From a virus, in the IMG/VR virus record IMGVR_UViG_3300027792_000292, positions 32,001 through 96,000 of that record: DNA of 64,000 nucleotides. One strand, written 5' to 3'. Below are positions 2,200-52,289 of this stretch, piece by piece. The position numbers and the translations under genes were made by a program. Numbering within the stretch: position 1 is the first letter of the stretch; each line of letters opens with the position of its first letter. The notes below the pieces were generated by a model. That model did no database searches and was not told where the DNA came from. It saw only the letters and a list, made by a program, of their open reading frames with translations.

Positions 2200-5100
2200 A
2201 TGGCTATATATGTTGATATAAATTCTACCTATACAGGTTCTAATCATTCAGGATCTACATCTGACCCATGGTCTTGGACACAGTGGCTATCAGCTACTAA
2301 AAATACTATTTATTATTTTAGGGGCATGAGAAGTACAAGTTCATCTATATCTTATGGTACTAGCTCATATACTATAGATGCTTGGGATTTGAAGTTATAT
2401 GGGCCGTGGAAATTAACTGTTAATGATGCAAATTCAATAAATGCTAAATACATTAATGGGTACCTATCAGTCTCTAGTACTACTGATTTTAAGTTTTCTG
2501 AACTAACAAATTCTTTTATTGTTGTTCCTACCGCTGCCTTAGTAAATATAGCAGGTAGCGGGACTATAGCAAAATCTACTTTTAAGTGTGGTACTATTAC
2601 CTGTTTAGGTACTACATCAATTACTGACTCTATAATTAATGCCTCAATAACGTTACCCTCTGGAAATGTATTAAACGTATCTGATACAGTGACCGATAAG
2701 TCAGGACCCTCAACTTTTGTAATAGGTTCAGGAACTATAACTCTTACTGACATTATATATAATTGGTCCCCACCAGCGTATCCTACGTACTCTGACCCTG
2801 AGTTATCTAATTTTAATCTTTATGACGGCTATGGCGTAGGGTACCCATTAATATGGACGTATATATTACCTTATAAAAAATATGTATTTTTGAGTTCTAC
2901 GTACACTTCAGCAGGGCATGCAGGGACAATCTCAGATCCCTGGTCTTTTGTAGATTTTAGTTCGGGTATAAGAGATAATGGGGTGTACTATCTTAAGGGT
3001 CAGTATACCATAACATCTAATTTTACGAGTACAAAAACATTTAGTATGCGAGCTTGGGATGTAGGTCAGTACGGACCCTGGAGGATAAGAGGTTCCGCAA
3101 ACTCTTTCTCTGCTATAAATGTATCTTTATACGATGGTTACCTTGAGGGGACAAATGTTAGTTACTTAAATGCTACACGAATGTATATTTACACATCATC
3201 TGGTGTAGGAACTAATACAATTAGTAGCTCAGGTACCGTATCTCAGACAACATTAGTACATAAACAGGACCTGACTATTTCTATTGGCACTGTTACTATG
3301 AGTAATGTTGTTTTTTGGGGAATAGATACTGGCGATAATATCTCTGTATCACTAGGGGCCACTTTAAATATAGATACTTGTTATACAAATAAAACAAATA
3401 GAACAAGTTTATTTACTATATCAGGTACCGTTAATGATACAAATATAACATATAGTCAAGTCTTTTCTTCACTGCCTTTATGGACATCTACAGACCTAAG
3501 AGACTTTAATTTGAATAGCTTAGGTTCGGGGGTAGCATCAGAAAATAACTGGGCAAGCGGAAATAATTTTTACATTAGTTTAGAGGAGACCTCCACCGGA
3601 AATTCTGGAACTTACGGGGATCAGCGTATTGGATGGACTGAGCTACTAACTAAGCTTGGTACTACTCTGACAGCCGGAACAATATTTTACTGTAGAGGCA
3701 GTAGGACGCTATCAGCTAACCTTAGTTATACTGCGAGTGCTATATCTTTTAAGGCTTGGGATAAATCATCTTATGGTCCATGGAGAATAAAGACTAGTAC
3801 CTATACTTTGAATATCCCTTATATAAGTCTTTATGGCGGCCTCATAGATACAACAAGCAGTAGTAGTGCTACTATGTCTTCTCTTAGTGGGTGCTATATA
3901 ATAGGAGGAGCTGGAGATATACCTATACTAAAAGGTTATGCTGCTACTTCTATAACTCTGATTGATAGGACAACATTTGTTTTAACAGGAAAGCTACAAA
4001 TAGACCAACCTCCTTTGGTAGCTAGAACATACACCTTTACTAAATGTATAATGTATACTTCTGGAGGTGCGACATTCCTTGACTCAGACTCTGGGAATAC
4101 GGTAAATATCACAGATTGTATTACTAATAAATCGAACTTAGCTAATTTCACTAATTATACTCCAGCTGTTAATGCTACTAATCTGACCTATGGGTGGACT
4201 CCTCCTGTATCGTTACCTGCATGGAATGCCACTGATTTGTACTCCTATAAACTTGTAGGGACTTCTGATGCATCCGATTATGGATGTCAAGAATTTCCTA
4301 CTATATTATATGCGGATATTGCAGTAACAAATGATTTATCAGAATATAATGGTGAAGACTTTAATAATCCCGCATCTTTTCGTACAGTATACAGCCTACT
4401 ATCAACAATAGCACGGTCTTATATTTATTTAAAAGGAGCTAGAGATATAACTAGCGAGGTAGATTATGATGTCAATAATTTATCTTATCCTAATGCTAGT
4501 ACCACAGTATTAGCATGGGATAAAAGTTTATATGGCCCGTGGCAAATAAGGTCAGAAAGTATATCTAATAAAGGAATAAATTTAGTAGATGGTATAATGT
4601 ACTCTATAAATAATATATCTATATATGGGGTACATGAACAGTCTACTGATAGTATAAGTTATAAAGGTACGTTTTTTAATGCGGGATCGGCAGTTATAGT
4701 AGGTTCCGGGAGAAAAAATATAAAAGGCTGTAGTCTTATATCAAGTACAGTATCTACATCTTTTATAGAGGATGTACCAGATGATGTTCCCTATAATACA
4801 TACATAAATGATAACTTTAATGACGGGGCCGCTAATAGTTGGTGGGATTCCGAATTTAGAACAGGTCCCGATGCTTTTGAGATAGAGCAGTTTCCTCCGG
4901 GATCAGGTAACTACGTAGCAGTACAAAATAGTGATGACGACATAAGGCTCACCCCTGATGGAGTAAGCCTTACTGGTGACTTTGAATTAGAGATGGAAAT
5001 AATTTTTGGAGCTACCCAAACAGGTAATGTGTCAGAGCATCTGATGATTTTTAATGCCGGAACAAATGCTGAAATATTAGATTATTATTGGTCTGGCGGT

Positions 5101-7815
5101 TATCTACATTTTCACGGAAGTTCTGTATACCTACCAGCATCTCCCTACGGTAGCATCTTTATAAAATTGGTAAGAATAGGCTCAAGCATCTATGCTTATT
5201 ATTCTGATATTAATAGTACAAATAGCTGGACACTACACCCTGGAAGCGCCATAACTTATAGCGGCTCTTACTATGTTGGGATAAATGGAGCTGATAATAA
5301 CGGTATAGGAGAGTTTAACTTTTCAACAGAGGGTAGTGTACCTGGGGATACGCATAGTTTTCCATACGGCAGTGTAGATGGTGACTCTTATTTAGAAAAC
5401 ACAGTAATTGATACCTCCGCTGTAAGTATAGGGTCTTGGGAGTATGCTACTATAGATATTACCTCTTCTCTGTTCTCAACTTCTCAGTGGGTTGGGACAG
5501 GGATAACATATAGTGGAACTAATCAATATTCCTGGACAAAAGCAACATCTTGGCCTCTATGGGATGAGGAAGAAGTAAATAATAGAGATATATATGGTTA
5601 TGGGCAGTGGAGCAGCAATATAACTATTTCAGGTGATTCCTCATTATGGGTTTCTTATTCTGAGGGCTTATGGGGGGAACCTCGTTTGGGAGTAGGGGCT
5701 TTTTATTTTAGCTCTTTATTAGATTTCTCAGGTGACCCCTTATTAGGGTACTTCTCTCCAGGAGGTGCTGATAGGGTGCAGTTTACTATAATAGATGATG
5801 CAGGAGCTACTAGCTGGAGATGGGATTTTGGAGATGGGACAAGTATCTTAATAACAGACCCTTTACTAAAAAATGTAGCACATGATTACACTGCTGAGGG
5901 AGTCTATACTGTATCTCTAACGCTTAATGAAAATGCCTCATTAAGGGTAACTAAATATGGGTATATAGTATGTCTTAGAATTCTTGACCTTTCTGTAATA
6001 AGTAATCCTTTATTCTACTATGGTAATGTACCAGGAACTGGAGTAACTTTCCAATTTGGAGTGACTAATCCTACAAGGACATTAGATAATACTGTAGTTG
6101 CAGGGTATAACGGATTTCATTGGGACTTTGGAGATAGCTCTACACAGGAAGGTGTTACAGGACCTTTTCATAATTACAATACTTATAATACTTTTCAAGT
6201 TGCTCTTACTCTAAGAGATATAGGTATTTCTGGTATAGATTCTACTAAGCAGACAACTACATTTTTAAGAAATGTATCTATATTTAATTTATTGATACAA
6301 GTAACTCCTAATCTTGGTTTATTACCTCTTCCAGTTACTTTCACGGTAACTTCTGCTCCTGGATCATATGAGCCTGTAACCTGGAGATGGTTATTTAGAG
6401 ATTCTTCTGAGTCTAATACTAAGAATACATCACACACCTATACTACCGCAGGAGTATATGATGTGGTTTTGATAACTGATGAAGGGTTACCTACTCAGCA
6501 GATATTTAGTTCTGATCCTTTATATCCTGGAGTAACTCAAGTAGTATCTAATATGCGGGTAGTAGCATCTGGACTAAACGCTGATTTTGAAGTAATACCA
6601 TCACATGGCTATATTCCATTTACAGGGTCATTTAATGGCTCTCTATCACAAGGATCTATTACGGGATGGGAATGGATATTTGATGATGGGTCTTCACATT
6701 TATTTGGAGTAACGGCTCCAGTCCATGTTTATGGTACAGCGGACACTTATAGCCCTAGTTTAACTGTTTATGATATTTATGGTCTTATAAGTACTAAAAC
6801 AAAAACTTTAGATATTTTACCTAGTCTAGATATAAATATCTCTTTTGATACTACTTATGTCCCCAATAATGTTACATTTACACCCGTCAATGATGACTAT
6901 GCTGAGACGTGGGACTGGGAGCTGATACACACAGATAGCATATTAGGGGAATTAATAATAGATAGGAAGAATGCTGTTACTTCCTTGGATAAAGTCTTTG
7001 TGACAGGCTTAGCGGCTCCAACAAGCTACAAAATAAGACTTACTATAACTGATGATCTTAGTAATGTATACATAGTAAATAAAACATTTAGTGTTCCAGA
7101 GCACATAGCTATAGTAACAACTCCTACCCCTGCAACAGGTAAGAATCCACTTACTGTAGACTTCTCAACTACAGGAGCTGTATATAGTACGGTGACTACC
7201 TGGGAGTGGGATTTTACTGGAGATGGTATTTATGAAGCGACTACTGAAACAGCAAGTTATACCTATCTTATAGATGCTGTTTACTTAGCTTTTCTGCATC
7301 TTACCTGGAGACTTCAGGATATAGATGTGCCAGGAAAATCAGCGACAGTATCTTTGGATAAATATGTAGGAGTTCATGTTGTTCCAAATCTTTTATCAGT
7401 AAGTATAGAAGCTACCCCAGTTATAGGACAGAAAGACTTAGATGTGAACTTTGTCGGAATAGCTAATAATCCTATAGTCTCCTGGAATTGGGAATTAGAG
7501 GGGGTTGGGAATATAGGCTCAACTCAAGAGGTAAATTATACGTTTACAGAAATAGGGAGTTACATTGTAACCCTTACAGTTTCTGATTCTTTCGGGAATG
7601 GGCCTTTATCTACAAATGTCACAATAACAGTTTTATCAGGGGTTTCTACCCCAGATATAGCTCCTGGAGATGATACTTTTTTATCTCTGGGTGGTTCAGG
7701 GAATATTGTAACTCATGAAGGTAAGGGAGTAACATTAAGGATACCTATATATGAAACCAATCCAACACCTTTCGGGTTTACAAGAAGTTACGGGCCAACC
7801 ATAATATTTGATTAG
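2200..7815 (+). CDS. 1871-aa virion protein with four AWD-x3-YGPW modules and multiple PKD domains
   Basis: Repeated WxWDFGDG PKD motifs in the C-terminal third; Ser/Thr-rich repeated N-terminal modules. Confidence 0.75.
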   Translation: MAIYVDINSTYTGSNHSGSTSDPWSWTQWLSATKNTIYYFRGMRSTSSSISYGTSSYTIDAWDLKLYGPWKLTVNDANSINAKYINGYLSVSSTTDFKFSELTNSFIVVPTAALVNIAGSGTIAKSTFKCGTITCLGTTSITDSIINASITLPSGNVLNVSDTVTDKSGPSTFVIGSGTITLTDIIYNWSPPAYPTYSDPELSNFNLYDGYGVGYPLIWTYILPYKKYVFLSSTYTSAGHAGTISDPWSFVDFSSGIRDNGVYYLKGQYTITSNFTSTKTFSMRAWDVGQYGPWRIRGSANSFSAINVSLYDGYLEGTNVSYLNATRMYIYTSSGVGTNTISSSGTVSQTTLVHKQDLTISIGTVTMSNVVFWGIDTGDNISVSLGATLNIDTCYTNKTNRTSLFTISGTVNDTNITYSQVFSSLPLWTSTDLRDFNLNSLGSGVASENNWASGNNFYISLEETSTGNSGTYGDQRIGWTELLTKLGTTLTAGTIFYCRGSRTLSANLSYTASAISFKAWDKSSYGPWRIKTSTYTLNIPYISLYGGLIDTTSSSSATMSSLSGCYIIGGAGDIPILKGYAATSITLIDRTTFVLTGKLQIDQPPLVARTYTFTKCIMYTSGGATFLDSDSGNTVNITDCITNKSNLANFTNYTPAVNATNLTYGWTPPVSLPAWNATDLYSYKLVGTSDASDYGCQEFPTILYADIAVTNDLSEYNGEDFNNPASFRTVYSLLSTIARSYIYLKGARDITSEVDYDVNNLSYPNASTTVLAWDKSLYGPWQIRSESISNKGINLVDGIMYSINNISIYGVHEQSTDSISYKGTFFNAGSAVIVGSGRKNIKGCSLISSTVSTSFIEDVPDDVPYNTYINDNFNDGAANSWWDSEFRTGPDAFEIEQFPPGSGNYVAVQNSDDDIRLTPDGVSLTGDFELEMEIIFGATQTGNVSEHLMIFNAGTNAEILDYYWSGGYLHFHGSSVYLPASPYGSIFIKLVRIGSSIYAYYSDINSTNSWTLHPGSAITYSGSYYVGINGADNNGIGEFNFSTEGSVPGDTHSFPYGSVDGDSYLENTVIDTSAVSIGSWEYATIDITSSLFSTSQWVGTGITYSGTNQYSWTKATSWPLWDEEEVNNRDIYGYGQWSSNITISGDSSLWVSYSEGLWGEPRLGVGAFYFSSLLDFSGDPLLGYFSPGGADRVQFTIIDDAGATSWRWDFGDGTSILITDPLLKNVAHDYTAEGVYTVSLTLNENASLRVTKYGYIVCLRILDLSVISNPLFYYGNVPGTGVTFQFGVTNPTRTLDNTVVAGYNGFHWDFGDSSTQEGVTGPFHNYNTYNTFQVALTLRDIGISGIDSTKQTTTFLRNVSIFNLLIQVTPNLGLLPLPVTFTVTSAPGSYEPVTWRWLFRDSSESNTKNTSHTYTTAGVYDVVLITDEGLPTQQIFSSDPLYPGVTQVVSNMRVVASGLNADFEVIPSHGYIPFTGSFNGSLSQGSITGWEWIFDDGSSHLFGVTAPVHVYGTADTYSPSLTVYDIYGLISTKTKTLDILPSLDINISFDTTYVPNNVTFTPVNDDYAETWDWELIHTDSILGELIIDRKNAVTSLDKVFVTGLAAPTSYKIRLTITDDLSNVYIVNKTFSVPEHIAIVTTPTPATGKNPLTVDFSTTGAVYSTVTTWEWDFTGDGIYEATTETASYTYLIDAVYLAFLHLTWRLQDIDVPGKSATVSLDKYVGVHVVPNLLSVSIEATPVIGQKDLDVNFVGIANNPIVSWNWELEGVGNIGSTQEVNYTFTEIGSYIVTLTVSDSFGNGPLSTNVTITVLSGVSTPDIAPGDDTFLSLGGSGNIVTHEGKGVTLRIPIYETNPTPFGFTRSYGPTIIFD

Positions 7816-43901: not shown

Positions 43902-45074
43902 TTGAGAGGAGATTCTATGAGACCTCGTACAAAAAGTTCTAATCCTAAACATCAAATTCTGGCCCGTCCTGATGTGGAAACCGAGGAAGAGGCTGACATT
44001 GATAGCGGTATCTTAAGGCTTCAAGATGAGAATCATAAGCTACGGTCTAAACTGAAAGACTTACAAAGAGAGAGCACTCTTTTCAAATCTCTTGCTGCGA
44101 TCATTAAAGACCAAGCCCCCTTCTCTACTTTTGCCCCTTGTAAATTACCGAAGATAACTAGAAAAGTCACTGAGTCTGCAATGCTCGTTCTCTCCGATAG
44201 TCATGGAGACCAGGAGATCCTAGGTAAGAGAGTTCAGAGTCTGGAAGAATATAATTTTGATGTCGCTTGTCGTAGAGCTGAGAGAATAGTTGATACTACT
44301 ATAAGTCATCTAATTGACAATCTGAAAGGATATACTTTCGAGCGGCTATACATAGCCGGGCTTGGAGATTATGTTAATGGTGAGATTCATTCAGCACTTG
44401 AGCACTCCAAATGGAAAAATGCAATGAAGAATGCTATGGGCATGGGCGAATTAATGGCTATGATGATCACGGATTTATCTCGTTATTTTCCTGAGATAGT
44501 TTTCTGTTCAGTTTCAGGTAATCATGGTAGAAAAAGTATAAAGAAGGATTATAGAGGAGCGCAGGATAATTGGGACTATCTTGTAGGTATGCACACAGCT
44601 ACAAGACTAAAGCCTCTTATAGAAGAGGGAAGAGTAAAGATACACATACCAGATTCTTGGTCTATGGGGTTGAGTGTTTATAATTGGAATTTCGTATTAA
44701 ATCACGGAGATGATATAAAGAGCTGGAATAGTCTCCCATGGTATGGGATTGAAAGAAAAACAAGAAGATTAAATGCTATTGGTTCAATAACTGGTAAAAT
44801 GCCAAATTACTTTTTATTTGGACACTTTCATAATATGGCTACTCAACAGCATACCACAGGAGAGACTCTCATCAATGGTAGCTGGAATGCTACCGATGAG
44901 TTTGCCTTGGAAGGATTAGGAGCATACTCCGAACCTTTTCAGTGGTTATTTGGTATTCACCCAAAATATGGGATAACCTGGAGACTTCCAGTAAAGTTAA
45001 GAGTTCCTAATTGGGCAGATGCTGAAAGTAAATCAGGACGTTATAACATAAGTCTATTTGAAGATTTTGAGTGA
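43902..45074 (+). CDS. calcineurin-like metallophosphoesterase
   Basis: SDSH, LGD, GNHG, HGD, GHFH; start may be ATG 43917. Confidence 0.85.
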   Translation: MRGDSMRPRTKSSNPKHQILARPDVETEEEADIDSGILRLQDENHKLRSKLKDLQRESTLFKSLAAIIKDQAPFSTFAPCKLPKITRKVTESAMLVLSDSHGDQEILGKRVQSLEEYNFDVACRRAERIVDTTISHLIDNLKGYTFERLYIAGLGDYVNGEIHSALEHSKWKNAMKNAMGMGELMAMMITDLSRYFPEIVFCSVSGNHGRKSIKKDYRGAQDNWDYLVGMHTATRLKPLIEEGRVKIHIPDSWSMGLSVYNWNFVLNHGDDIKSWNSLPWYGIERKTRRLNAIGSITGKMPNYFLFGHFHNMATQQHTTGETLINGSWNATDEFALEGLGAYSEPFQWLFGIHPKYGITWRLPVKLRVPNWADAESKSGRYNISLFEDFE

Positions 45075-45255
45075 TACTATGTATAAATTTATTAAGAAAA
45101 TCAAAAATGTCTTTGTTCCTCTCCAGGCTACTATACTTCTATTCAACCTGGAGACATAGTACTTGTACTAAAGGATGGTAAACCATACGGAGTTTGTGGA
45201 TCGGTTTATGCTACGTAGGTTGATATGTCAAGACAAATAGAATATAAAAAATCAC

Positions 45256-45284
45256 TTGATCTTAAATAAGTGAAATGGTATATT
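45256..45284 (+). promoter_or_regulatory. sigma70-type promoter for RNA unit 1
   Basis: TTGATC-17-TATATT. Confidence 0.75.
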
Positions 45285-45307
45285 AGTAGTACGATCTTTG
45301 ATAAAAT

Positions 45308-45456
45308 GGGTTCTGCACTCTGACAGATAATGGATGCGTACATTTGCATTTGCATTTAGCTCAGTCGGTAGAGCTGAGGAATAATAATCCTTTGGTCGGC
45401 GGTTCAACTCCGCTAGTGCATTCCTTTCTATCGCATCTGCGACTTGTGCAGAACCC
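45308..45456 (+). ncRNA. scaffold RNA unit 1 carrying tRNA-like cloverleaf (anticodon AAT)
   Basis: GGGTTCTGCAC/GTGCAGAACCC outer stem; GATGCG/CGCATC inner stem; cloverleaf 45351-45420 without CCA. Confidence 0.8.
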
Positions 45457-45470
45457 TTTTAAAATTTTTC

Positions 45471-45499
45471 TTGATCATTGAATACCGAAATGGTATATT
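45471..45499 (+). promoter_or_regulatory. sigma70-type promoter for RNA units 2-3
   Basis: TTGATC-17-TATATT. Confidence 0.75.
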
Positions 45500-45535
45500 A
45501 GTGTTACTCAAGTGAAACTTGGAAAGTTCTTTGAA

Positions 45536-45662
45536 AGATACGAAGCATACTCAAACCCTTGATGCATACATTATAGCTCATTGGTAGAGCGTTTGCCATT
45601 TAAGCAAAAGGTACGGTTCAAATCCGTTCGTCCCGCATTAGTAACTCGTGTGCTTTGTATCT
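45536..45662 (+). ncRNA. scaffold RNA unit 2 carrying D, anticodon and T arms without acceptor stem
   Basis: AGATACGAAGCATAC/GTGTGCTTTGTATCT; GCTC-ATTGGTA-GAGC; TTTGC-CATTTAA-GCAAA; ACGG-TTCAAAT-CCGT. Confidence 0.8.
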
Positions 45663-45766
45663 ATATATTTCGAGAGTTCTCGCTACTCAACGACCACGGA
45701 TTAAAAGACGTATACGAAGAGTAAAGGGTCTCTCGACTGAAAATAAGTTTTTTGATAATAGATCTT

Positions 45767-45914
45767 TGACATGAGTTACACTCCAACTTTTGATGCGTAC
45801 ATTTGCTTTTTCGTCCAATTGGTAGGACATTACTCTGATAAAGTGATTGTTGGGGGTTCAAGTCCCTCAAAAGCAGCCCAAAACTCGCATTATCAACTTG
45901 TGTAACTCATGTCA
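45767..45914 (+). ncRNA. scaffold RNA unit 3 carrying a complete tRNA-Ile(GAT)-like cloverleaf
   Basis: Perfect 15-bp outer stem TGACATGAGTTACAC/GTGTAACTCATGTCA followed by a U tract. Confidence 0.8.
45804..45876 (+). tRNA. tRNA-Ile(GAT)-like, embedded in unit 3
   Basis: TGCTTTT/AAAAGCA acceptor, GTCC/GGAC D stem, loop CTGATAA, GGGGG-TTCAAGT-CCCTC; G73 then CCCA is atypical, so it may be a mimic. Confidence 0.55.
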
Positions 45915-45922
45915 TTTTTTTC

Positions 45923-45951
45923 TTGATCTTTAATTACCAAAAAGGTATATT
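45923..45951 (+). promoter_or_regulatory. sigma70-type promoter for RNA units 4-7
   Basis: TTGATC-17-TATATT. Confidence 0.75.
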
Positions 45952-45982
45952 AGAATACAGACCTGAAAAGGTCAAGCTCTTT

Positions 45983-46158
45983 GAAAGATAGAAGCACTCT
46001 CTAATTTTGGATGCATACATTGGTTCAAGCGTTTGCTAACTAAAGCAAAAGATTGTTCGTTCAAGTCGAACTTCCCCCACCAAGTAGATTTTAATGTCTA
46101 CTTGGTGGGGGAAAAGCTTAATAAAAAAAGCATTTATAACTTGAGTGTTTCTTCTTTC
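45983..46158 (+). ncRNA. scaffold RNA unit 4 carrying tRNA circularly permuted in the D loop
   Basis: Order GGTTC-AAGC, anticodon arm TTTGC/GCAAA, T arm GTTCG-TTCAAGT-CGAAC, TTCCCCC-A-CCA, hairpin linker, GGGGGAA, AA, GCTT. Confidence 0.75.
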
Positions 46159-46196
46159 ATTCGTTCCTTGTCCCTATGTAATAGGGGTTGTTCTAT

Positions 46197-46336
46197 GAAA
46201 AGTATCTTCTAACAGTTAGGGCGTACATTATCCTGTAAAGATAAACGCCTGGGCATTAAGCGCTCAGGCATCTGTATTCCTTCCGCCTTAGCGCGGCTGG
46301 GATATAGCACACGCATTGATTACTCGGATACTTCTC
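46197..46336 (+). ncRNA. scaffold RNA unit 5 with Tyr(GTA)-like anticodon hairpin
   Basis: AAGTATCT/GGATACTT outer stem; GGCGTACATT...CGCATT-GATT-ACTC; TTATC-CTGTAAA-GATAA; GCCTGGGC/GCTCAGGC arm. Confidence 0.7.
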
Positions 46337-46356
46337 TTGTCATACTCTTTGAAATT

Positions 46357-46483
46357 ATAGTGTATTTATCCTCTAATGCTGAGGGCTTACATTTTCTACG
46401 GTTGAAAAACAAGCCTAAGCGCACTCCCGTTTGGTGGGAGGAAGCGATGGGTCGAGCACTTAGGACTCGGATAAATACATTAT
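46357..46483 (+). ncRNA. scaffold RNA unit 6 with degenerate cargo
   Basis: ATAGTGTATTTATCC/GGATAAATACATTAT; GGCTTACATT...GCACT-TAGG-ACTC; CTCCC/GGGAG hairpin. Confidence 0.7.
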
Positions 46484-46502
46484 TATATAATTACTATGAG
46501 TA

Positions 46503-46651
46503 TAAGTCTCATCTTCTAACTTTTGATGCGTACATTGTCATGCTGGTTCGAATCCAGTCGCTCTTTTCGGAGAGCGTAGCCGAATGGTAAGGCACCCGTT
46601 TAAGGAACAGGAACAAAACAAACTTCGCATTAGTAACTTGGATGGGATTTA
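46503..46651 (+). ncRNA. scaffold RNA unit 7 carrying tRNA permuted at the variable loop (YrlA-like T-acceptor-D order)
   Basis: GCTGG-TTCGAAT-CCAGT, CGCTCTT-TTCG-GAGAGCG, TA, GCC-GAATGGTAA-GGC, CCCGT-TTAAGGA-ACAGG. Confidence 0.8.
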
Positions 46652-46653
46652 TT

Positions 46654-46689
46654 AAGAGCCGGGATTCGAAAGGATTCCGGCTCTTTTTT
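46654..46689 (+). terminator. intrinsic terminator ending the RNA array
   Basis: AAGAGCCGGGATTC-GAAA-GGATTCCGGCTCTT-TTTT. Confidence 0.85.
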
Positions 46690-46804: not shown

Positions 46805-47062
46805 ATGGCAAGTGTGCATATTCGTTACGATGGTAGTACCAGGGAAGTCGATTTCGAAAATATTTTTCCAGAAGATCGACTTACAGCTATAGGGATTGCC
46901 AATACCGCGCAGGTTAACTCACGCAACGTGAGCGCCGATAACGTCAAGACTGCCGTAGCGCAGTATCTCGATATCGGATTGGGAGAACTTGATGGGTATA
47001 ACGTCGAGTTCCATAAGAACGGAAACATCACCGTTCGCCCTGATGCTGTATTTGGGAAGTAA
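46805..47062 (+). CDS. ubiquitin-like (beta-grasp) protein, C-terminus PDAVFG-K
   Basis: 85 aa, AGGAGG RBS, strand-strand-helix-strand pattern, penultimate Gly; JAB and E1 nearby. Confidence 0.6.
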   Translation: MASVHIRYDGSTREVDFENIFPEDRLTAIGIANTAQVNSRNVSADNVKTAVAQYLDIGLGELDGYNVEFHKNGNITVRPDAVFGK

Positions 47063-47132
47063 GTTGTCCAACTCGGGCCTATAAATTAAGGCCCTCAAAC
47101 CTGATAATATAATACTTAAAAGGAGAAACTCC

Positions 47133-48731
47133 ATGAATCGTCAGCGTAACACTCAAACTGTTTCCGCGCCACAAATACCACAGGTTGAACAGGACATCCG
47201 TGTTCAAATGCTCAATAGCTTCATGTCCTGTCCACATCGTGATACTGATGCGATCAGGAAGATACATGAGGATCTGCGACAGCGTGACCCTTCATTCTAC
47301 TCTCATCTTGCTGCCTGGTATGAGAAGAATGGCGAACTTCGCGACCACAAGGAAGTATTCATTTCTATGTTGATCGTAGACCCCTATCTCGATAACCGTG
47401 AGGTTGGTCTTGCCCTGTGGCAGAAAGCTGTGCCTTTCATGAAGACCCGTATCCTTGGTTTCATTAAGGGTAAGAAGGTCAAGATTCGTGAGAAGACAAA
47501 TCAGACACGCCAAGTTGGAAAGAAGAAAATTCCGGTAGTAAACGTGACCGAGAAAGTTGTGGGCCTTTTTAAGAACGTGCCCTCAGCGTTCAAGACTGAG
47601 GTGGTACACTATCTAAAGTGGTTAGAGACCGACCCTGAGCGTTTTGATGGTGTGGCTATGCGCAACTCTGAGGATTTGAGGACGCTCTACGCTTCCTTGA
47701 AAATCCCTCACTCAAAGAGAGTGCAACAAATCCTTTGGGAGAAGAAGTACCCAAAGGAGAGTAAGTTGAATGTTTTCAAGGAGATTACGGATGCGAAGTC
47801 TCCTGAAGAAGCAGCAACGCTCATTGTTAAGAATAAGGTTCCGTATACTACGGCAGTAGGTCTCATTGAGAAGATGACCCCCTCCATCTTGGTTGCTCTC
47901 ATCAATAATATGAGTTCCCAGGAAGTTATTAACAACATTGCTTCTCTTCAGGAGAGTGGTGCATTAGATAACCCTGATACTAAGGCTATGGTTGAAAAGA
48001 AGCTTAAGCAGGCTGAGACCGCAAAGAATGTTACAGCCTTGAAGTCTAAAGCAGCGATTAATACAGGTCGTATCAAGGATGAGGCTGTCGTGGCGCAACT
48101 TGATAAGATTGCAGATGTACAAATAAAGAGCAAAGGTATCATTATGGCTTCTACAGCGATCTTTGTAGATCGCTCTGGATCGATGAGCATTGCTATTGAG
48201 TCAGGGAAGCATTGTGCAGCGATGGTATCCGGTGCTACAGAAGCTCCTTTGTATGTGGTTGCCTTTGATACGCTTCCAATGGAAATCTATCCAGTGTCCG
48301 CACGTCCAAAGGACAGGACCACTACCATGACCGACTGGGAAAGGGCATTTAAGCCTGTGCGCGATGGTGGTTCGACTTCTATGGGATGTGCTTTGGAGTA
48401 TCTGCGTCAAAAGAAGATGTACGTTGAGCAGATTGTTGTTATTACTGATGAGGGTGAGAATGCAACCCCCATGTTCACTGATGTCTATACTCGGTACTCC
48501 GAGGAGATGAAGGTGAAGCCTCATGTGGTTATCATCCGTACACCAAATTCAGGTCATACTTTCAGCACAAACCTGAAGAGGGCTGGTATTAGTTATGATG
48601 TATACACTCCTAATGGGTCAGACTACTATGGTTTACCAGGATTGATTCCACTTCTTGCCCGAACATCGAAGCTGGACCTTCTTATGGAGATCATGGATAC
48701 TCCGCTTCCTACACGTAGGCAGTGGAAGTAA
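47133..48731 (+). CDS. TROVE/Ro60-like helical domain plus vWA protein
   Basis: N-terminal DP.FY.HLA.WY...G..RD helical region; C-terminal vWA DRSGS, GGST, ITDE; size typical of Ro60. Confidence 0.65.
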   Translation: MNRQRNTQTVSAPQIPQVEQDIRVQMLNSFMSCPHRDTDAIRKIHEDLRQRDPSFYSHLAAWYEKNGELRDHKEVFISMLIVDPYLDNREVGLALWQKAVPFMKTRILGFIKGKKVKIREKTNQTRQVGKKKIPVVNVTEKVVGLFKNVPSAFKTEVVHYLKWLETDPERFDGVAMRNSEDLRTLYASLKIPHSKRVQQILWEKKYPKESKLNVFKEITDAKSPEEAATLIVKNKVPYTTAVGLIEKMTPSILVALINNMSSQEVINNIASLQESGALDNPDTKAMVEKKLKQAETAKNVTALKSKAAINTGRIKDEAVVAQLDKIADVQIKSKGIIMASTAIFVDRSGSMSIAIESGKHCAAMVSGATEAPLYVVAFDTLPMEIYPVSARPKDRTTTMTDWERAFKPVRDGGSTSMGCALEYLRQKKMYVEQIVVITDEGENATPMFTDVYTRYSEEMKVKPHVVIIRTPNSGHTFSTNLKRAGISYDVYTPNGSDYYGLPGLIPLLARTSKLDLLMEIMDTPLPTRRQWK

Positions 48732-51380: not shown

Positions 51381-52289
51381 ATGGAAAGATCAACTATTCG
51401 GAGACAGCTACATAAAACTGTACGAGAATGGATTAACAGTATCACAGATGTCAAAGTAAAAGAAGCTTGCGAGGCAGATGTGTTAGTTGCAGGTGGATGT
51501 ATCTCTTCAATATTGTTAAAGGAAAAAGTTAACGACTATGATGTATATTTTCGAACAAAAGAAACCGCGAGCCTCGTAGTAGCTTATTATGTTAACTTAT
51601 TTAAAAGCACCTTTCCTACTGCTACACATATAACAGGAAAACCAATCGAAATTTTTACGGATGGTCCAAATATCATAATAAAATCTGCAGGGGTTGCCTC
51701 AGCTACAAGTTCAGATACGCCTTATCAGTACTTTGAAACTGCACCAGAAGATAACGCAGCGGAGTACTTGGATGTAGCGGTAAATGCTAAAATTCCAAAA
51801 GATTTACCTCCATATACTCCTATTTTCTTGTCTGGTAATGCTGTTACCTTGACCAATAGTATTCAATTGGTTACTCGATTTTATGGTGACATTGATTATG
51901 TCAAAACCACCTTTGATTTTGAGCATACAAAATGCATTTATGACTTTGCTGCCAATCGACTGCATTTACCTGAAAATTCGTTATATGCTATTTTAACTCG
52001 ATCATTAATCTATACAGGATCAGCATATCCCATTTGTTCAATGATCAGAACAAATAAGTTTATCCAACGAGGCTGGTCGATTAATGCAGGTAACTATTTA
52101 AAGATTGCTTTCGATATTAACAGTTTAAATCTTAACTCTTTAAATACACTTAGAGATCAACTCATAGGTGTAGATGTAGCATATTTTCAAGAATTGTTGG
52201 AAGTTTTAAAGAAGGATATTACACAAACACCTGGTAAAGTTATATCAGCTACGTATATTGCGGAGCTGTTGGATCGTCTATTCGCATAG
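51381..52289 (+). CDS. nucleotidyltransferase (CCA/poly(A) polymerase head-like)
   Basis: VAGGC......VNDYDVYF, IQL, FDF motifs. Confidence 0.65.
   Translation: MERSTIRRQLHKTVREWINSITDVKVKEACEADVLVAGGCISSILLKEKVNDYDVYFRTKETASLVVAYYVNLFKSTFPTATHITGKPIEIFTDGPNIIIKSAGVASATSSDTPYQYFETAPEDNAAEYLDVAVNAKIPKDLPPYTPIFLSGNAVTLTNSIQLVTRFYGDIDYVKTTFDFEHTKCIYDFAANRLHLPENSLYAILTRSLIYTGSAYPICSMIRTNKFIQRGWSINAGNYLKIAFDINSLNLNSLNTLRDQLIGVDVAYFQELLEVLKKDITQTPGKVISATYIAELLDRLFA

What the first reader, a model, noticed from the sequence alone, without database searches (positions are those of the whole stretch)
45351..46611. tRNA cargos are grafted onto the scaffold in four different topologies
Seen: units 1 and 3 hold complete cloverleaves joined at the acceptor ends. 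Unit 2 has D, anticodon and T arms, with the scaffold replacing the acceptor stem. Unit 4 is circularly permuted in the D loop, its acceptor (TTCCCCC-A-CCA/GGGGGAA) closed by a hairpin. Unit 7 is permuted at the variable loop, in the order T arm, acceptor closed by UUCG, D arm, anticodon arm. Known: YrlA has the T-acceptor-D order but lacks the anticodon arm. Inference: tRNA genes were captured repeatedly and independently. The elbow and anticodon arm are kept while the aminoacylation end is blocked or removed, so these look like mimics rather than translational tRNAs.
Basis: partly seen in the sequence, partly recalled or inferred. Interest (0 to 1): 0.85.

Follow-up and report, generated by a model that had tools for sequence, protein, structure and literature searches.

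The report
Phage Y-RNA array displaying rearranged tRNAs
A large phage carries seven small RNA genes in a row that share one conserved stem "handle"; five of them show a tRNA-shaped part joined to the handle at four different points, next to a gene for a Ro60-like RNA-binding ring protein, so this looks like a many-membered, modular version of the known Ro60/Y-RNA particles.

Summary
Observation confirmed. Units 1 and 3 are full tRNAs (Rfam 53.8 and 60.9 bits). Unit 2 is a tRNA without an acceptor stem (41.3 bits, model 7-64). ARAGORN calls units 4 and 7 tRNA only after in-silico re-permutation (2/35 and 122/128 joins; 0/500 shuffles each).

Unit 7's order (T arm, closed acceptor, D arm, anticodon arm) recurs in 8 units of 7 other phage loci, and all six helices covary (31/35 pairs). 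Unit 4's type recurs in 3 loci, but its D stem and its 'ACCA' are not conserved.

The shared handle lies upstream of a gene whose predicted fold is Ro60 (TROVE+vWA). A strict scan finds handles upstream of that gene in 16/21 loci and nowhere else in them.

Best reading: a Y-RNA-like array in which the handle docks Ro60 and the tRNA body is the displayed part.

'Independent captures' and 'blocked ends' are only partly supported. The types are old and keep their order. About half of the scaffolded full tRNAs encode CCA. A 7-bp closed acceptor is an RNase P substrate in M. smegmatis YrlA.

The handles lack the YrlA motif and fail Rfam YrlA. This scan noted the same kind of array on other DNA before; I found no paper describing it.

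The parts
45256..45284 (+). sigma-70-like promoter candidate before unit 1 (TTGATC-17-TATATT, TG before the -10)
   Evidence: The number of promoter-like sites in the region is not above shuffles (6 against a mean of 7.2), so these are consensus matches only. The same promoter-plus-leader block is repeated before units 2 and 4 (families D3, D6, D9).
45305..45459 (+). Unit 1: handle with a complete tRNA at the apex (cargo 45350-45422, anticodon loop AUAAUAA, reading aat)
   Evidence: Rfam tRNA 53.8 bits, ARAGORN, fold, scaffold scan with a basal stem of 14 bp.
45471..45499 (+). promoter candidate before unit 2
   Evidence: repeat D3.
45536..45662 (+). Unit 2: handle with a tRNA body lacking the acceptor stem (D, anticodon and T arms at 45573-45628)
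   Evidence: Rfam tRNA 41.3 bits, model 7-64 only. No ARAGORN call. Fold. Same type at L002 about 4480-4610 and L005 about 4570-4690.
45767..45914 (+). Unit 3: handle with a complete tRNA at the apex (45804-45876, anticodon gat)
   Evidence: Rfam tRNA 60.9 bits, ARAGORN 45803-45880 ending in CCA in its register, basal stem of 15 bp.
45923..45951 (+). promoter candidate before unit 4
   Evidence: repeat D3.
45988..46162 (+). Unit 4: handle joined on the D side of a tRNA-like body. TACATT-GG, arm 46032-46049, T arm 46055-46071, 17-bp closed acceptor hairpin 46072-46113, AA-GCTT 46114-46119.
   Evidence: ARAGORN after re-permutation, 2 of 35 joins. 0 of 500 shuffles. Counterpart units in L004, L006 and L007.
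46200..46333 (+). Unit 5: same handle, cargo of three hairpins that is not tRNA-like
   Evidence: Fold. Handle repeats D1, D2, D11. ARAGORN 0 of 86 circular permutations of the cargo.
46357..46483 (+). Unit 6: same handle, cargo that is not tRNA-like
   Evidence: Fold. Basal stem of 15 bp. ARAGORN 0 of 62 circular permutations.
46502..46652 (+). Unit 7: handle joined at the variable-loop position. T arm 46542-46558, acceptor closed by UUCG 46559-46576, D arm 46579-46593, anticodon-like arm 46595-46611.
   Evidence: Partial Rfam YrlA match of 24.7 bits. ARAGORN after re-permutation, 122 of 128 joins. 0 of 500 shuffles. Covariation in 9 units.
46654..46685 (+). intrinsic-terminator-like hairpin (14-bp stem, T run) that closes the array
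46805..47062 (+). 85-aa ORF ending VFGK, directly before the Ro60-like gene; a similar small ORF sits in the same place in L001, L002 and L005
   Evidence: ORF list. No Pfam, PHROG or NCBIfam hit. Counterparts read.
47063..47108 (+). closed copy of the handle's internal-loop module in the 5' UTR of the Ro60-like gene (outer 6-bp stem, loop CAACUC / UCAAACCU, 6-bp capped hairpin)
   Evidence: Fold -17.8 kcal/mol, z -2.61, 2 of 200 shuffles as good. Similar elements by eye before the gene in L001 and L007 (printout).
47133..48731 (+). Ro60-like protein (TROVE-type helical ring plus vWA domain), 532 aa
   Evidence: AlphaFold2 model with pLDDT 83.3 and pTM 0.76. The first 12 listed Foldseek PDB hits are all Ro60/TROVE, E 1e-11 to 2.3e-9. 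Pfam TROVE is not detected by sequence. phrog_850 'RNA-binding protein' 2e-6.

Best explanation
The stretch is an array of seven phage-encoded Y-RNA-like small RNAs that belong with the Ro60-like ring protein encoded just downstream.

Each RNA has two modules. The first is a conserved 'handle'. It consists of a sequence-variable basal helix, a small internal loop with conserved letters (5' side YCUAAC-like, 3' side RACUY), and an inner helix (GAUGCG:CGCAUU in this phage). A 5' junction UACAUU and an A-rich 3' junction follow. The second module is a variable cargo.

Inferred: the handle is the docking site of the Ro60-like protein, and a closed copy in that gene's own 5' UTR suggests feedback. 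In five units the cargo is a tRNA body. It is joined to the handle at the acceptor ends (units 1, 3), in place of the acceptor stem (unit 2), on the D-arm side with the acceptor closed (unit 4), or at the variable-loop position with the acceptor closed (unit 7).

Inferred: these are positions from which an extra helix can leave a tRNA without breaking the L shape. The particle would then show a tRNA-shaped surface (elbow plus anticodon-type loop) to tRNA-recognising factors while it is tethered to Ro60, as Y RNAs tether Ro60 to partners.

The four join types are old, conserved unit types and not captures made in this phage. They can be turned into one another by circular permutation: the unit 4 type is the rotated form of tRNAs that carry a closed handle in the D region in more distant phages.

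Whether some units are then opened or released by RNase P and 3' trimming is open.
For: Shown:
- Seven units share the handle.
- The handle's two helices covary in 9 related units: 7 of 7 basal pairs and 7 of 9 inner pairs have compensatory changes.
- The downstream ORF folds as Ro60: the first 12 listed PDB hits are all Ro60/TROVE.
- With a strict scan, 48 handle units lie within 4.5 kb upstream of the Ro60-like gene in 16 of 21 non-duplicate loci (window included). None lies in the other 350,920 scanned bases of those loci.
- The handle sequence differs between protein clades: TACATT where identity to the window's protein is 52% or more, TACAAAC at about 40%.
- The cargo topologies are verified.
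- The unit 7 type has all six helices supported, including a 5-bp anticodon arm with 5 of 5 covarying pairs. 7 of the 9 anticodon loops have the form CU-NNN-AA (read).
- The unit 4 type recurs in L004, L006 and L007.
- Closed handles sit inside tRNAs in L001, L018 and L019. In-silico excision gives tRNA calls in 116, 31, 64, 67, 18 and 117 of 180 variants for 6 of 15 modules tried, and the native stretches give none. Rfam tRNA spans one such 127-nt gene at 50.6 bits.
- A handle-like hairpin lies in the Ro60 5' UTR.

From the literature (passages read): Y RNAs are encoded next to Ro60, bind it through the terminal stem, and carry a tRNA-like T-acceptor-D module (PMC4201824; bioRxiv 10.1101/312249). 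Phage Ro60 binds phage-encoded Y-like RNAs (PMC12135203).
Against: - No binding, expression or processing data exist. The only RNA-library signal is short contigs of a relative about 90% identical over parts of the array, and these may be DNA carry-over.
- The handle has no GNCGAA/CGAA motif in any 5' strand. The only two + strand matches in the array lie in a T arm and a D arm.
- Rfam YrlA is far below its threshold in the window (24.7 against 69 bits) and absent at E<=0.05 in five related loci.
- The protein is Ro60-like by predicted fold only. Pfam TROVE does not see it.
- 14 of 29 scaffolded tRNAs encode CCA, which fits release as real tRNAs as well as display.
- My strict scanner misses 3 of the 7 window units and finds none in 5 of 21 loci.
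- The D stem of unit 4 is not conserved.
Confidence: 0.6

Rival explanations
1. Processing cassette. The handle is a leader-trailer helix of pre-tRNAs. Units 1 and 3, and their counterparts elsewhere, are cut by RNase P at the 5' end. At the 3' end an endonuclease cuts in the A-rich linker, followed by trimming. Ordinary, chargeable tRNAs are released. The Ro60-like protein at most chaperones or times this, and units 2, 4-7 are decayed or regulatory by-products.
For: - Units 1 and 3 pass the Rfam tRNA threshold over the full model.
- 14 of 29 scaffolded tRNAs end in CCA, and 12 of these are followed by an A-rich tract. No such tract follows any of the 38 unscaffolded tRNAs of the same loci, 22 of which end in CCA.
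- They are the only ARAGORN tRNAs in the 131-kb record.
- RNase E cutting just after an encoded CCA is textbook for E. coli (abstract of PMC2190699, seen in the listing).
Against: - The same handle carries cargos that can never be tRNAs (units 5, 6; unit 2 without an acceptor; empty handles in L001, L015/L016, L018, L019).
- The handle's internal loop is conserved in sequence, which a mere processing helix does not need.
- Closed acceptors are capped by stable tetraloops (UUCG, GCAA, GAAA types).
- 15 of 29 scaffolded tRNAs lack CCA.
- The record is only about 24% complete, so 'only tRNAs' says little.
Confidence: 0.2
2. Splicing and permuted-gene system. The handle is a recognition motif for an endonuclease plus ligase. 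Closed handles would be introns. Open handles of permuted units (4, 7) would be cut and ligated to give circular intermediates, which RNase P then opens, as for the permuted tRNA genes of a red alga and some archaea.
For: - The set of forms seen in this family matches the forms handled by one motif in archaeal and algal tRNA processing, as summarised in the discussion of bioRxiv 10.1101/312249 (passages read). The forms are a handle inside a tRNA, a handle as leader-trailer, and permuted bodies with a closed acceptor.
- Excising closed handles in silico restores tRNA calls for 6 of 15 modules.
Against: - The handle is not a bulge-helix-bulge. It has a 6x5-nt internal loop between helices of 6-9 and 9-15 bp.
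- Unit 2 and several closed-handle units have no acceptor or no D stem to restore: 9 of 15 excisions give 0-5 calls of 180.
- No RtcB was found in the record, although the record is about 24% complete.
- No bacterial splicing endonuclease is known (stated in 10.1101/312249).
- The Ro60 link is left unexplained.
Confidence: 0.08
3. No function. The array is a decaying tRNA cluster with rearranged pseudogenes, and the shared flanks are remnants of tandem duplication.
For: The units are tandem and share flanks. Several anticodon loops are non-canonical: A33 in unit 2, and 8 nt in unit 4.
Against: - Compensatory changes keep all helices in distant relatives (31 of 35 pairs; covariation 0.779 against 0.11-0.17 with slid partners).
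- The association with one gene family holds across loci at 40-60% protein identity.
- DNA pieces in three other runs were identical, with 0 other letters.
Confidence: 0.03

Closest known systems
YrlA-type bacterial and phage Y RNAs with Rsr/Ro60 (Rfam RF02553; Chen et al. 2014, PMC4201824; Wang et al. 2018, bioRxiv 10.1101/312249)
   Same: - Small RNAs encoded beside a Ro60 gene.
- A terminal stem plus a tRNA-like module.
- Unit 7 has the T arm, closed acceptor and D arm in YrlA order, and gives a partial RF02553 match.
- A conserved UA(Y) follows the stem, where YrlA has YUAY.
- Several Y RNAs per locus.
   Different: - The handle has no GNCGAAN0-1G motif and a different conserved internal loop.
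- RF02553 is not reached.
- Unit 7 and its 8 relatives keep a covarying anticodon stem-loop, which YrlA lacks, so the handle leaves from the variable-loop position and not from the anticodon stem.
- Other units carry whole tRNAs, an acceptor-less tRNA or a D-side graft.
- There are seven units here and more in some relatives.
- Sequence models do not recognise the protein as TROVE.
Mycobacterium smegmatis YrlA (PMC4201824, section 8 passages read)
   Same: A 7-bp closed 'acceptor' in a Y RNA, as in units 4 and 7.
   Different: [quoted passage not shown] Here nothing is known about processing.
Thermus phage phiLo Ro60 with Yrl1/Yrl2 (PMC12135203, passages read; PDB 9kop, 9l5y among the fold hits)
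   Same: A phage-encoded Ro60 with Y-like RNAs encoded upstream of the gene.
   Different: The phiLo RNAs were picked by a CGAA motif in a large internal bulge, and in the passages I read they are not described as tRNA-shaped. Two RNAs, not seven.
Circularly permuted, split and intron-bearing tRNA genes of Cyanidioschyzon and some archaea (as summarised in 10.1101/312249; details otherwise recalled)
   Same: tRNA bodies transcribed in rotated order with a closed acceptor; one recurring helix motif at the break point.
   Different: Those use a bulge-helix-bulge motif and a splicing endonuclease and end as normal tRNAs. Here the motif is different, the context is a bacterial-type phage (sigma-70-like promoters and an intrinsic terminator), and some cargos can never become tRNAs.
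Class II tRNAs (Ser, Leu, Tyr) with a long variable arm (textbook knowledge, recalled)
   Same: In unit 7 and its relatives the handle leaves the body where the long variable arm leaves. L004 and L006 even combine a Ser-type D arm with a GCU loop.
   Different: The arm is a 30-plus-bp open helix that carries the RNA's own 5' and 3' ends, and the acceptor is closed.

Membership tests
Y RNA / YrlA (RF02553) | Encoded next to a Ro60 (TROVE) gene | tested here: met
   ORF 47133-48731 is Ro60-like by predicted fold, though not by Pfam. The array ends 450 nt upstream of it.
Y RNA / YrlA (RF02553) | Terminal stem carrying the GNCGAAN0-1G (CGAA) motif in its 5' strand | tested here: not met
   GNCGAA on the + strand of the array occurs only at 46065 (T arm of unit 4) and 46579 (D arm of unit 7). 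None is in a handle.
Y RNA / YrlA (RF02553) | Rfam covariance model at or above the gathering score (69 bits) | tested here: not met
   24.7 bits, model 30-81 only, for unit 7. No YrlA match at E<=0.05 in L001, L004, L006, L016 or L019.
Y RNA / YrlA (RF02553) | tRNA-like module in the order T arm, closed acceptor, D arm | tested here: met
   Unit 7 only. Units 1-4 have other orders.
Y RNA / YrlA (RF02553) | Bound by Ro60 in vivo or in vitro | not testable with these tools
   The only evidence is co-occurrence.
tRNA (RF00005) | Full cloverleaf at or above the gathering score (29 bits) | tested here: met
   Met by units 1 and 3 over the full model, and by unit 2 for positions 7-64 only. Units 4 and 7 do not meet it in native order.
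tRNA (RF00005) | Free, processed acceptor end with CCA; aminoacylation | not testable with these tools
   The DNA shows N-CCA after unit 3 in ARAGORN's register and TCC after unit 1. Maturation is unknown.
Permuted or intron-bearing tRNA genes processed through a bulge-helix-bulge motif | Two 3-nt bulges around a 4-bp helix at the break point | tested here: not met
   The consensus handle is a helix, a 6x5-nt loop and a helix of 6-9 bp.
Permuted or intron-bearing tRNA genes processed through a bulge-helix-bulge motif | Ligase or endonuclease partner present | tested here: inconclusive
   No RtcB (PF01139) in the 131-kb record, but the record is estimated at 24% complete. The host is unknown.

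The most novel reading that the evidence does not exclude
One protein-docking handle has been fused, over evolutionary time, to complete four-armed tRNA bodies at every structurally permissive site, in open and in closed (circularly permuted) forms. These sites are the acceptor end, the D side and the variable arm. The result is a phage 'tRNA display' platform. Ro60-tethered tRNA look-alikes with varied anticodon-type loops would act intact, as decoys, sensors or tethers for host tRNA-targeting factors such as anticodon nucleases or modification and charging enzymes. The unit 7 type would be the missing four-armed intermediate between tRNA and classical YrlA.
Probability: 0.3. Interest if true: 0.9.

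Novelty: new variant of a known kind. Interest (0 to 1): 0.75.

Why it matters
Ro60 and Y RNAs are conserved from bacteria to humans, yet what the tRNA-like half of bacterial Y RNAs is for remains unknown.

This family offers many natural variants of that half on one constant handle: whole tRNAs, an acceptor-less tRNA, two circular permutations, non-tRNA cargos and empty handles. They occur in hundreds of large phages (480 protein relatives at E<=0.001). That makes the question testable: which cargos bind which host factors, and does Ro60 need the handle?

The family also gives a four-armed form that bears on how Y RNAs arose from tRNAs.

In practice, tRNA finders miss three of the five tRNA-shaped genes here, and they call the other two ordinary tRNAs.

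Tried and rejected
- Pfam, NCBIfam and a PDB sequence search of the 532-aa ORF gave nothing useful. Only the predicted fold identified it.
- A single-protein scan of viral contigs found no relative. The alignment-based scan did.
- My first loose handle scanner gave many false hits at 7-8-bp basal stems. I replaced it with a strict one, which is conservative: it misses units 2, 4 and 5 of the window.
- The first CCA count looked at the wrong positions and printed 1 of 21. I redid it.
- A pattern scan for more units of the unit 4 type gave 15 stretches. Only 2 were real, and both were on contigs already held. That type therefore rests on 4 units.
- An automatic check for a handle in the 5' UTR of the Ro60-like gene in 20 loci was invalid, because my estimate of the ORF starts was off. 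It printed 1 of 20. I use only the window's fold and what can be read by eye for L001 and L007.
- Neighbouring ORFs 51381-52289 and 43902-45074 gave no PDB sequence match.
- RtcB and Pfam TROVE searches of the record were negative, but the record is about 24% complete.
- Sequencing runs: three DNA runs hold identical pieces. One metatranscriptome run holds contigs about 90% alike over parts of the array. Contigs cannot show transcription, ends or processing, so I draw nothing from covered or uncovered parts.
- The decoy-panel idea was not tested beyond one pair of loci.
- Literature searches found no description of handle-tagged or multiply permuted tRNA-Y RNAs in phages. Supplements were closed, and the supplementary tables and figures of Chen 2014 (phage YrlA lists, alignments) may bear on this.
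- The review PMC10870794 is not held.
Full report
WHAT IS THERE

The window is bases 32001-96000 of a single 131,126-base virus record. CheckV rates the record as about 24% complete, so it is a piece of a much larger phage.

Between 45305 and 46652 on the + strand lie seven tandem units with the same outer architecture. Each has:
- a basal helix of 9-15 bp whose sequence differs from unit to unit;
- a small internal loop with conserved letters (5' side TCTAAC-like, 3' side AACTT/AACTC-like);
- an inner helix (GATGCG with CGCATT in most units);
- the hexamer TACATT, and then a cargo of 60-100 nt.

Three sigma-70-like promoter candidates stand before units 1, 2 and 4. They are consensus matches only, because the count of such sites is not above shuffles. 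A strong terminator-like hairpin follows unit 7.

THE FOUR TOPOLOGIES

Units 1 and 3 hold complete tRNAs. Rfam scores them at 53.8 and 60.9 bits over the whole model, and ARAGORN reads anticodons aat and gat.

Unit 2 matches the tRNA model only from position 7 to 64, at 41.3 bits. The D, anticodon and T arms are present, but the two strands that lead to the handle cannot pair, so the handle's inner helix stands where the acceptor stem would be. ARAGORN finds nothing there in any circular permutation (0 of 68).

Unit 4 reads TACATT, GG, a stem-loop, a canonical T arm, then TTCCCCC-A-CCA. This runs into a perfect 17-bp hairpin whose other strand ends in GGGGGAA, followed by AA-GCTT. When the piece from GGGGGAA to GCTT is placed in front of the piece that begins near GG, ARAGORN draws a cloverleaf in 2 of 35 join variants. 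It does so in 0 of 500 dinucleotide shuffles of that construct. The anticodon-position loop has 8 nt (or 6 nt on a 6-bp stem), and the D stem has 3-4 pairs.

Unit 7 reads T arm, 7-bp acceptor closed by UUCG, D arm with a 3-bp stem, then a 5-bp arm with a 7-nt loop. Re-joined at the variable-loop position, it is called tRNA-Leu(aag) in 122 of 128 join variants, against 0 of 500 shuffles. In native order it gives a partial match to Rfam YrlA (24.7 bits, E 0.02, model 30-81 of 114, gathering score 69).

Units 5 and 6 carry the same handle, but no circular permutation of their cargos is tRNA-like (0 of 86 and 0 of 62).

The observation therefore stands. The weakest point is the D-loop description of unit 4.

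THE NEIGHBOUR GENE

The 532-aa ORF at 47133-48731 has no Pfam, NCBIfam or PDB sequence match. Its only sequence hit is a weak one to phrog_850 'RNA-binding protein' over its C-terminal part.

It has 480 relatives at E<=0.001 among the 8000 candidates scored. An AlphaFold2 model from 39 of them has pLDDT 83.3 and pTM 0.76. Its first 12 listed Foldseek matches in the PDB are all Ro60/TROVE structures: Xenopus, human, Deinococcus Rsr and the Thermus phage phiLo protein (E 1e-11 to 2.3e-9, TM 0.51-0.63). vWA domains follow. The ORF is a Ro60-like ring protein that sequence models miss.

RELATIVES

A tblastn search of deposited phages found one relative, in the huge phage LR756511.1 (41% identity; locus L001). 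An alignment-based scan of viral contigs gave 22 more loci.

Almost all have tRNA calls just upstream of the gene on the same strand, and reading them shows the same handle. In loci where the protein is 52% or more identical, the 5' junction is TACATT. In the clade at about 40% identity it is TACAAAC, with loop letters CC(A/T)AC and RACTTGGAC.

A strict scan required the junction motif, a perfect basal helix of 8 bp or more (or a capped hairpin), the ACTY loop letters and an inner helix. It finds 48 units within 4.5 kb upstream of the gene in 16 of 21 non-duplicate loci, the window included. It finds none in the remaining 350,920 scanned bases of the same loci. The scan is conservative. It misses 3 of the window's 7 units, and it misses loci such as L007, where units are plain by eye.

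EACH TOPOLOGY IS A CONSERVED TYPE

The unit 7 type (T arm first) occurs in L001, L004, L006, L007, L011, L016 (twice) and L019.

On an unguided MAFFT alignment of the 9 units, RNAalifold predicts the basal helix, inner helix, T arm, closed acceptor, D arm and anticodon arm. Of its 35 pairs, 31 show compensatory change. Counting pairs on that structure gives the following:
- 90.8% of cells are paired, against 66.3% in shuffles (0 of 500 reach it) and 32-45% when partners are slid.
- The covariation score is 0.779, against 0.11-0.17 with slid partners.
- The anticodon arm has 5 of 5 covarying pairs.

The structure was derived from the same alignment, which favours it somewhat. Seven of the 9 loops read CU-NNN-AA. 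In L004 and L006 a Ser-type D arm goes with a GCU loop, and the handle leaves exactly where a class II variable arm would (the class II comparison is recalled knowledge).

The unit 4 type (TACAT-GG, a stem-loop, T arm, long closed acceptor) occurs in L004, L006 and L007. The consensus supports the handle, the T arm and the long hairpin. The GCTT/AAGC D stem exists only in the window. The stem-loop at the anticodon position varies in loop size. The window's ACCA is GCTA in L006 and GTTA in L004.

The unit 2 type (no acceptor) occurs in L002 and L005. Whole tRNAs at the apex are common.

A fifth form is absent from the window. In L001, L011, L012, L018 and L019 the handle is a closed hairpin, often capped GAAA, that lies inside a tRNA's D region, while the acceptor ends are free. 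Cutting it out in silico gives ARAGORN tRNA calls in 116, 31, 64, 67, 18 and 117 of 180 variants for 6 of the 15 modules tried, and 0-5 of 180 for the other 9. The native stretches give none. Rfam's tRNA model spans one such 127-nt gene at 50.6 bits. The unit 4 type is the circular permutation of this form.

In L004, L006 and the window, the D-side unit precedes the T-first unit, and the T-first unit is the last before the Ro60-like operon.

The topologies are real. They are old unit types shared by phages whose Ro60-like proteins are 55-59% identical, or about 40% for the T-first type. They are not captures made in this genome.

The five cargo cores of the window are 42-64% identical, and units 2 and 4 are closest because they share the anticodon stem. 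That does not decide between deep divergence and separate origins.

The claim that the charging end is blocked is weaker than it looks, for three reasons:
- Of 29 non-duplicate ARAGORN tRNAs that begin next to the junction motif, 14 end in CCA, and 12 of these run into an A-rich linker. None of the 38 unscaffolded tRNAs of the same loci does so. The rule that defines 'scaffolded' is loose and includes a few doubtful cases.
- Unit 3 ends N-CCA in ARAGORN's register, and unit 1 does not.
- M. smegmatis YrlA, with its 7-bp closed acceptor, is cut by RNase P and receives CCA in vivo, and both halves stay on Rsr (PMC4201824, section 8 passages).

Units 4 and 7, both with 7-bp acceptors, could be opened in the same way.

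MECHANISM, WITH SHOWN AND INFERRED STEPS KEPT APART

Shown:
- the shared, covarying handle;
- the Ro60-like fold of the neighbour;
- the exclusive co-occurrence of the two;
- the four join types;
- a closed handle-like hairpin (47063-47108; z -2.61) in the 5' UTR of the Ro60-like gene, with similar elements by eye in L001 and L007 (printout).

Inferred:
- The handle docks the ring protein, as the terminal stem of a Y RNA does (PMC4201824; PMC12135203).
- The UTR copy lets the protein sense its own level.
- The tRNA body is displayed intact to tRNA-recognising factors.
- The join sites are the places where a tRNA tolerates an extra helix.

I put this at 0.6.

The main rival is release of ordinary tRNAs from units 1 and 3 (0.2). 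It is favoured by the CCA-plus-A-rich junction, and disfavoured by non-tRNA and empty cargos on the same handle and by the conserved loop letters.

A splicing or permuted-gene pathway (0.08) fits the repertoire of forms. It does not fit the motif, which is not a bulge-helix-bulge. It also does not fit the cargos that lack an acceptor or a D stem.

Decay without function (0.03) is contradicted by the covariation.

COMPARISON WITH WHAT IS KNOWN

It works like a Y RNA system, and unit 7 is YrlA-like. As a member of YrlA it fails two tested features: the GNCGAA motif is absent from every handle, and the Rfam score is not reached.

It differs from YrlA in keeping a full anticodon arm, in carrying whole and otherwise-joined tRNAs, and in unit number.

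In the held library I found no paper that describes this. Supplements were closed, and the phage tables of Chen 2014 may list related RNAs.

Earlier notes of this same scan describe the same kind of handle-tagged array beside Ro60-like genes on other DNA. They are unchecked AI notes. They agree with my reading but are not independent evidence.

VERDICT

This is a new variant of a known kind, with interest 0.75.

Noticed in passing
window 47063-47108: A closed, handle-like hairpin (outer stem, loop CAACUC/UCAAACCU, capped inner stem) lies in the 5' UTR of the Ro60-like gene, about 25 nt before its ribosome-binding site. Similar elements are visible before the gene in L001 (about 5925-5965) and L007. 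This suggests possible autoregulation.
   Followed up: partly
window 46200-46333 and 46357-46483: Units 5 and 6 carry the same handle but cargos of two or three hairpins that are not tRNA-like in any circular permutation. L002 and L005 also have a non-tRNA unit. What these cargos mimic is unknown.
   Followed up: partly
L004 5001-5077 against L006 5035-5110: Two counterpart whole-tRNA units differ at 7 of 17 positions of the anticodon arm (loops read taa and att) but at only 3 of 60 positions elsewhere (Fisher p 0.0006). The T-first units of the same two loci differ at 1 of 17. This may mean fast change of the anticodon arm in some units.
   Followed up: partly
window 46805-47062; L001 4157-4392; L002 about 5690-5942; L005 about 5677-5937: A small ORF of about 80-85 aa ending in ...FG or ...FGK always sits between the RNA array and the Ro60-like gene. 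Downstream in the window are a weak JAB-peptidase match and a ThiF/E1-type adenylyltransferase. Together these may form a ubiquitin-like set.
   Followed up: no
window 45350-45422; L006 5035-5110; L008 3465-3540: Several scaffolded tRNAs have A at the first anticodon position (aat, att), which is unusual for bacterial-type tRNAs. L010 and L013 carry scaffolded tRNAs with a tca (opal-reading) anticodon, and L021 has one with the junction motif at its start.
   Followed up: no
L010 5421-5500: A unit whose cargo seems to be a T arm alone between the two handle strands. Empty handles (cargo about 17-28 nt) occur in L001, L015/L016, L018 and L019.
   Followed up: no
window 45452-45540, 45904-45990, 46339-46354: The promoter-like block and a short leader ending in CTCTTTGAAAGATA are repeated before units 2 and 4 and in part before unit 6 (families D3, D6, D9). 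This suggests that the array grew by duplication of promoter-plus-unit blocks.
   Followed up: no
whole record (G000): The 131-kb record is rated about 24% complete, so the phage may be several hundred kb. Relatives of the protein lie on contigs of 200-570 kb. Two relatives carry the source label 'Candidatus Nanoarchaeia archaeon', although the window has bacterial-type promoters and terminators.
   Followed up: no
window 45252-45750, 45915-46036, 46405-46589: A freshwater-sediment metatranscriptome run (X12) holds short contigs about 90% identical to parts of the array. One of its differences (45566 A>G) turns an A.C mismatch in the inner helix of unit 2 into G-C. This is not proof of transcription.
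   Followed up: partly
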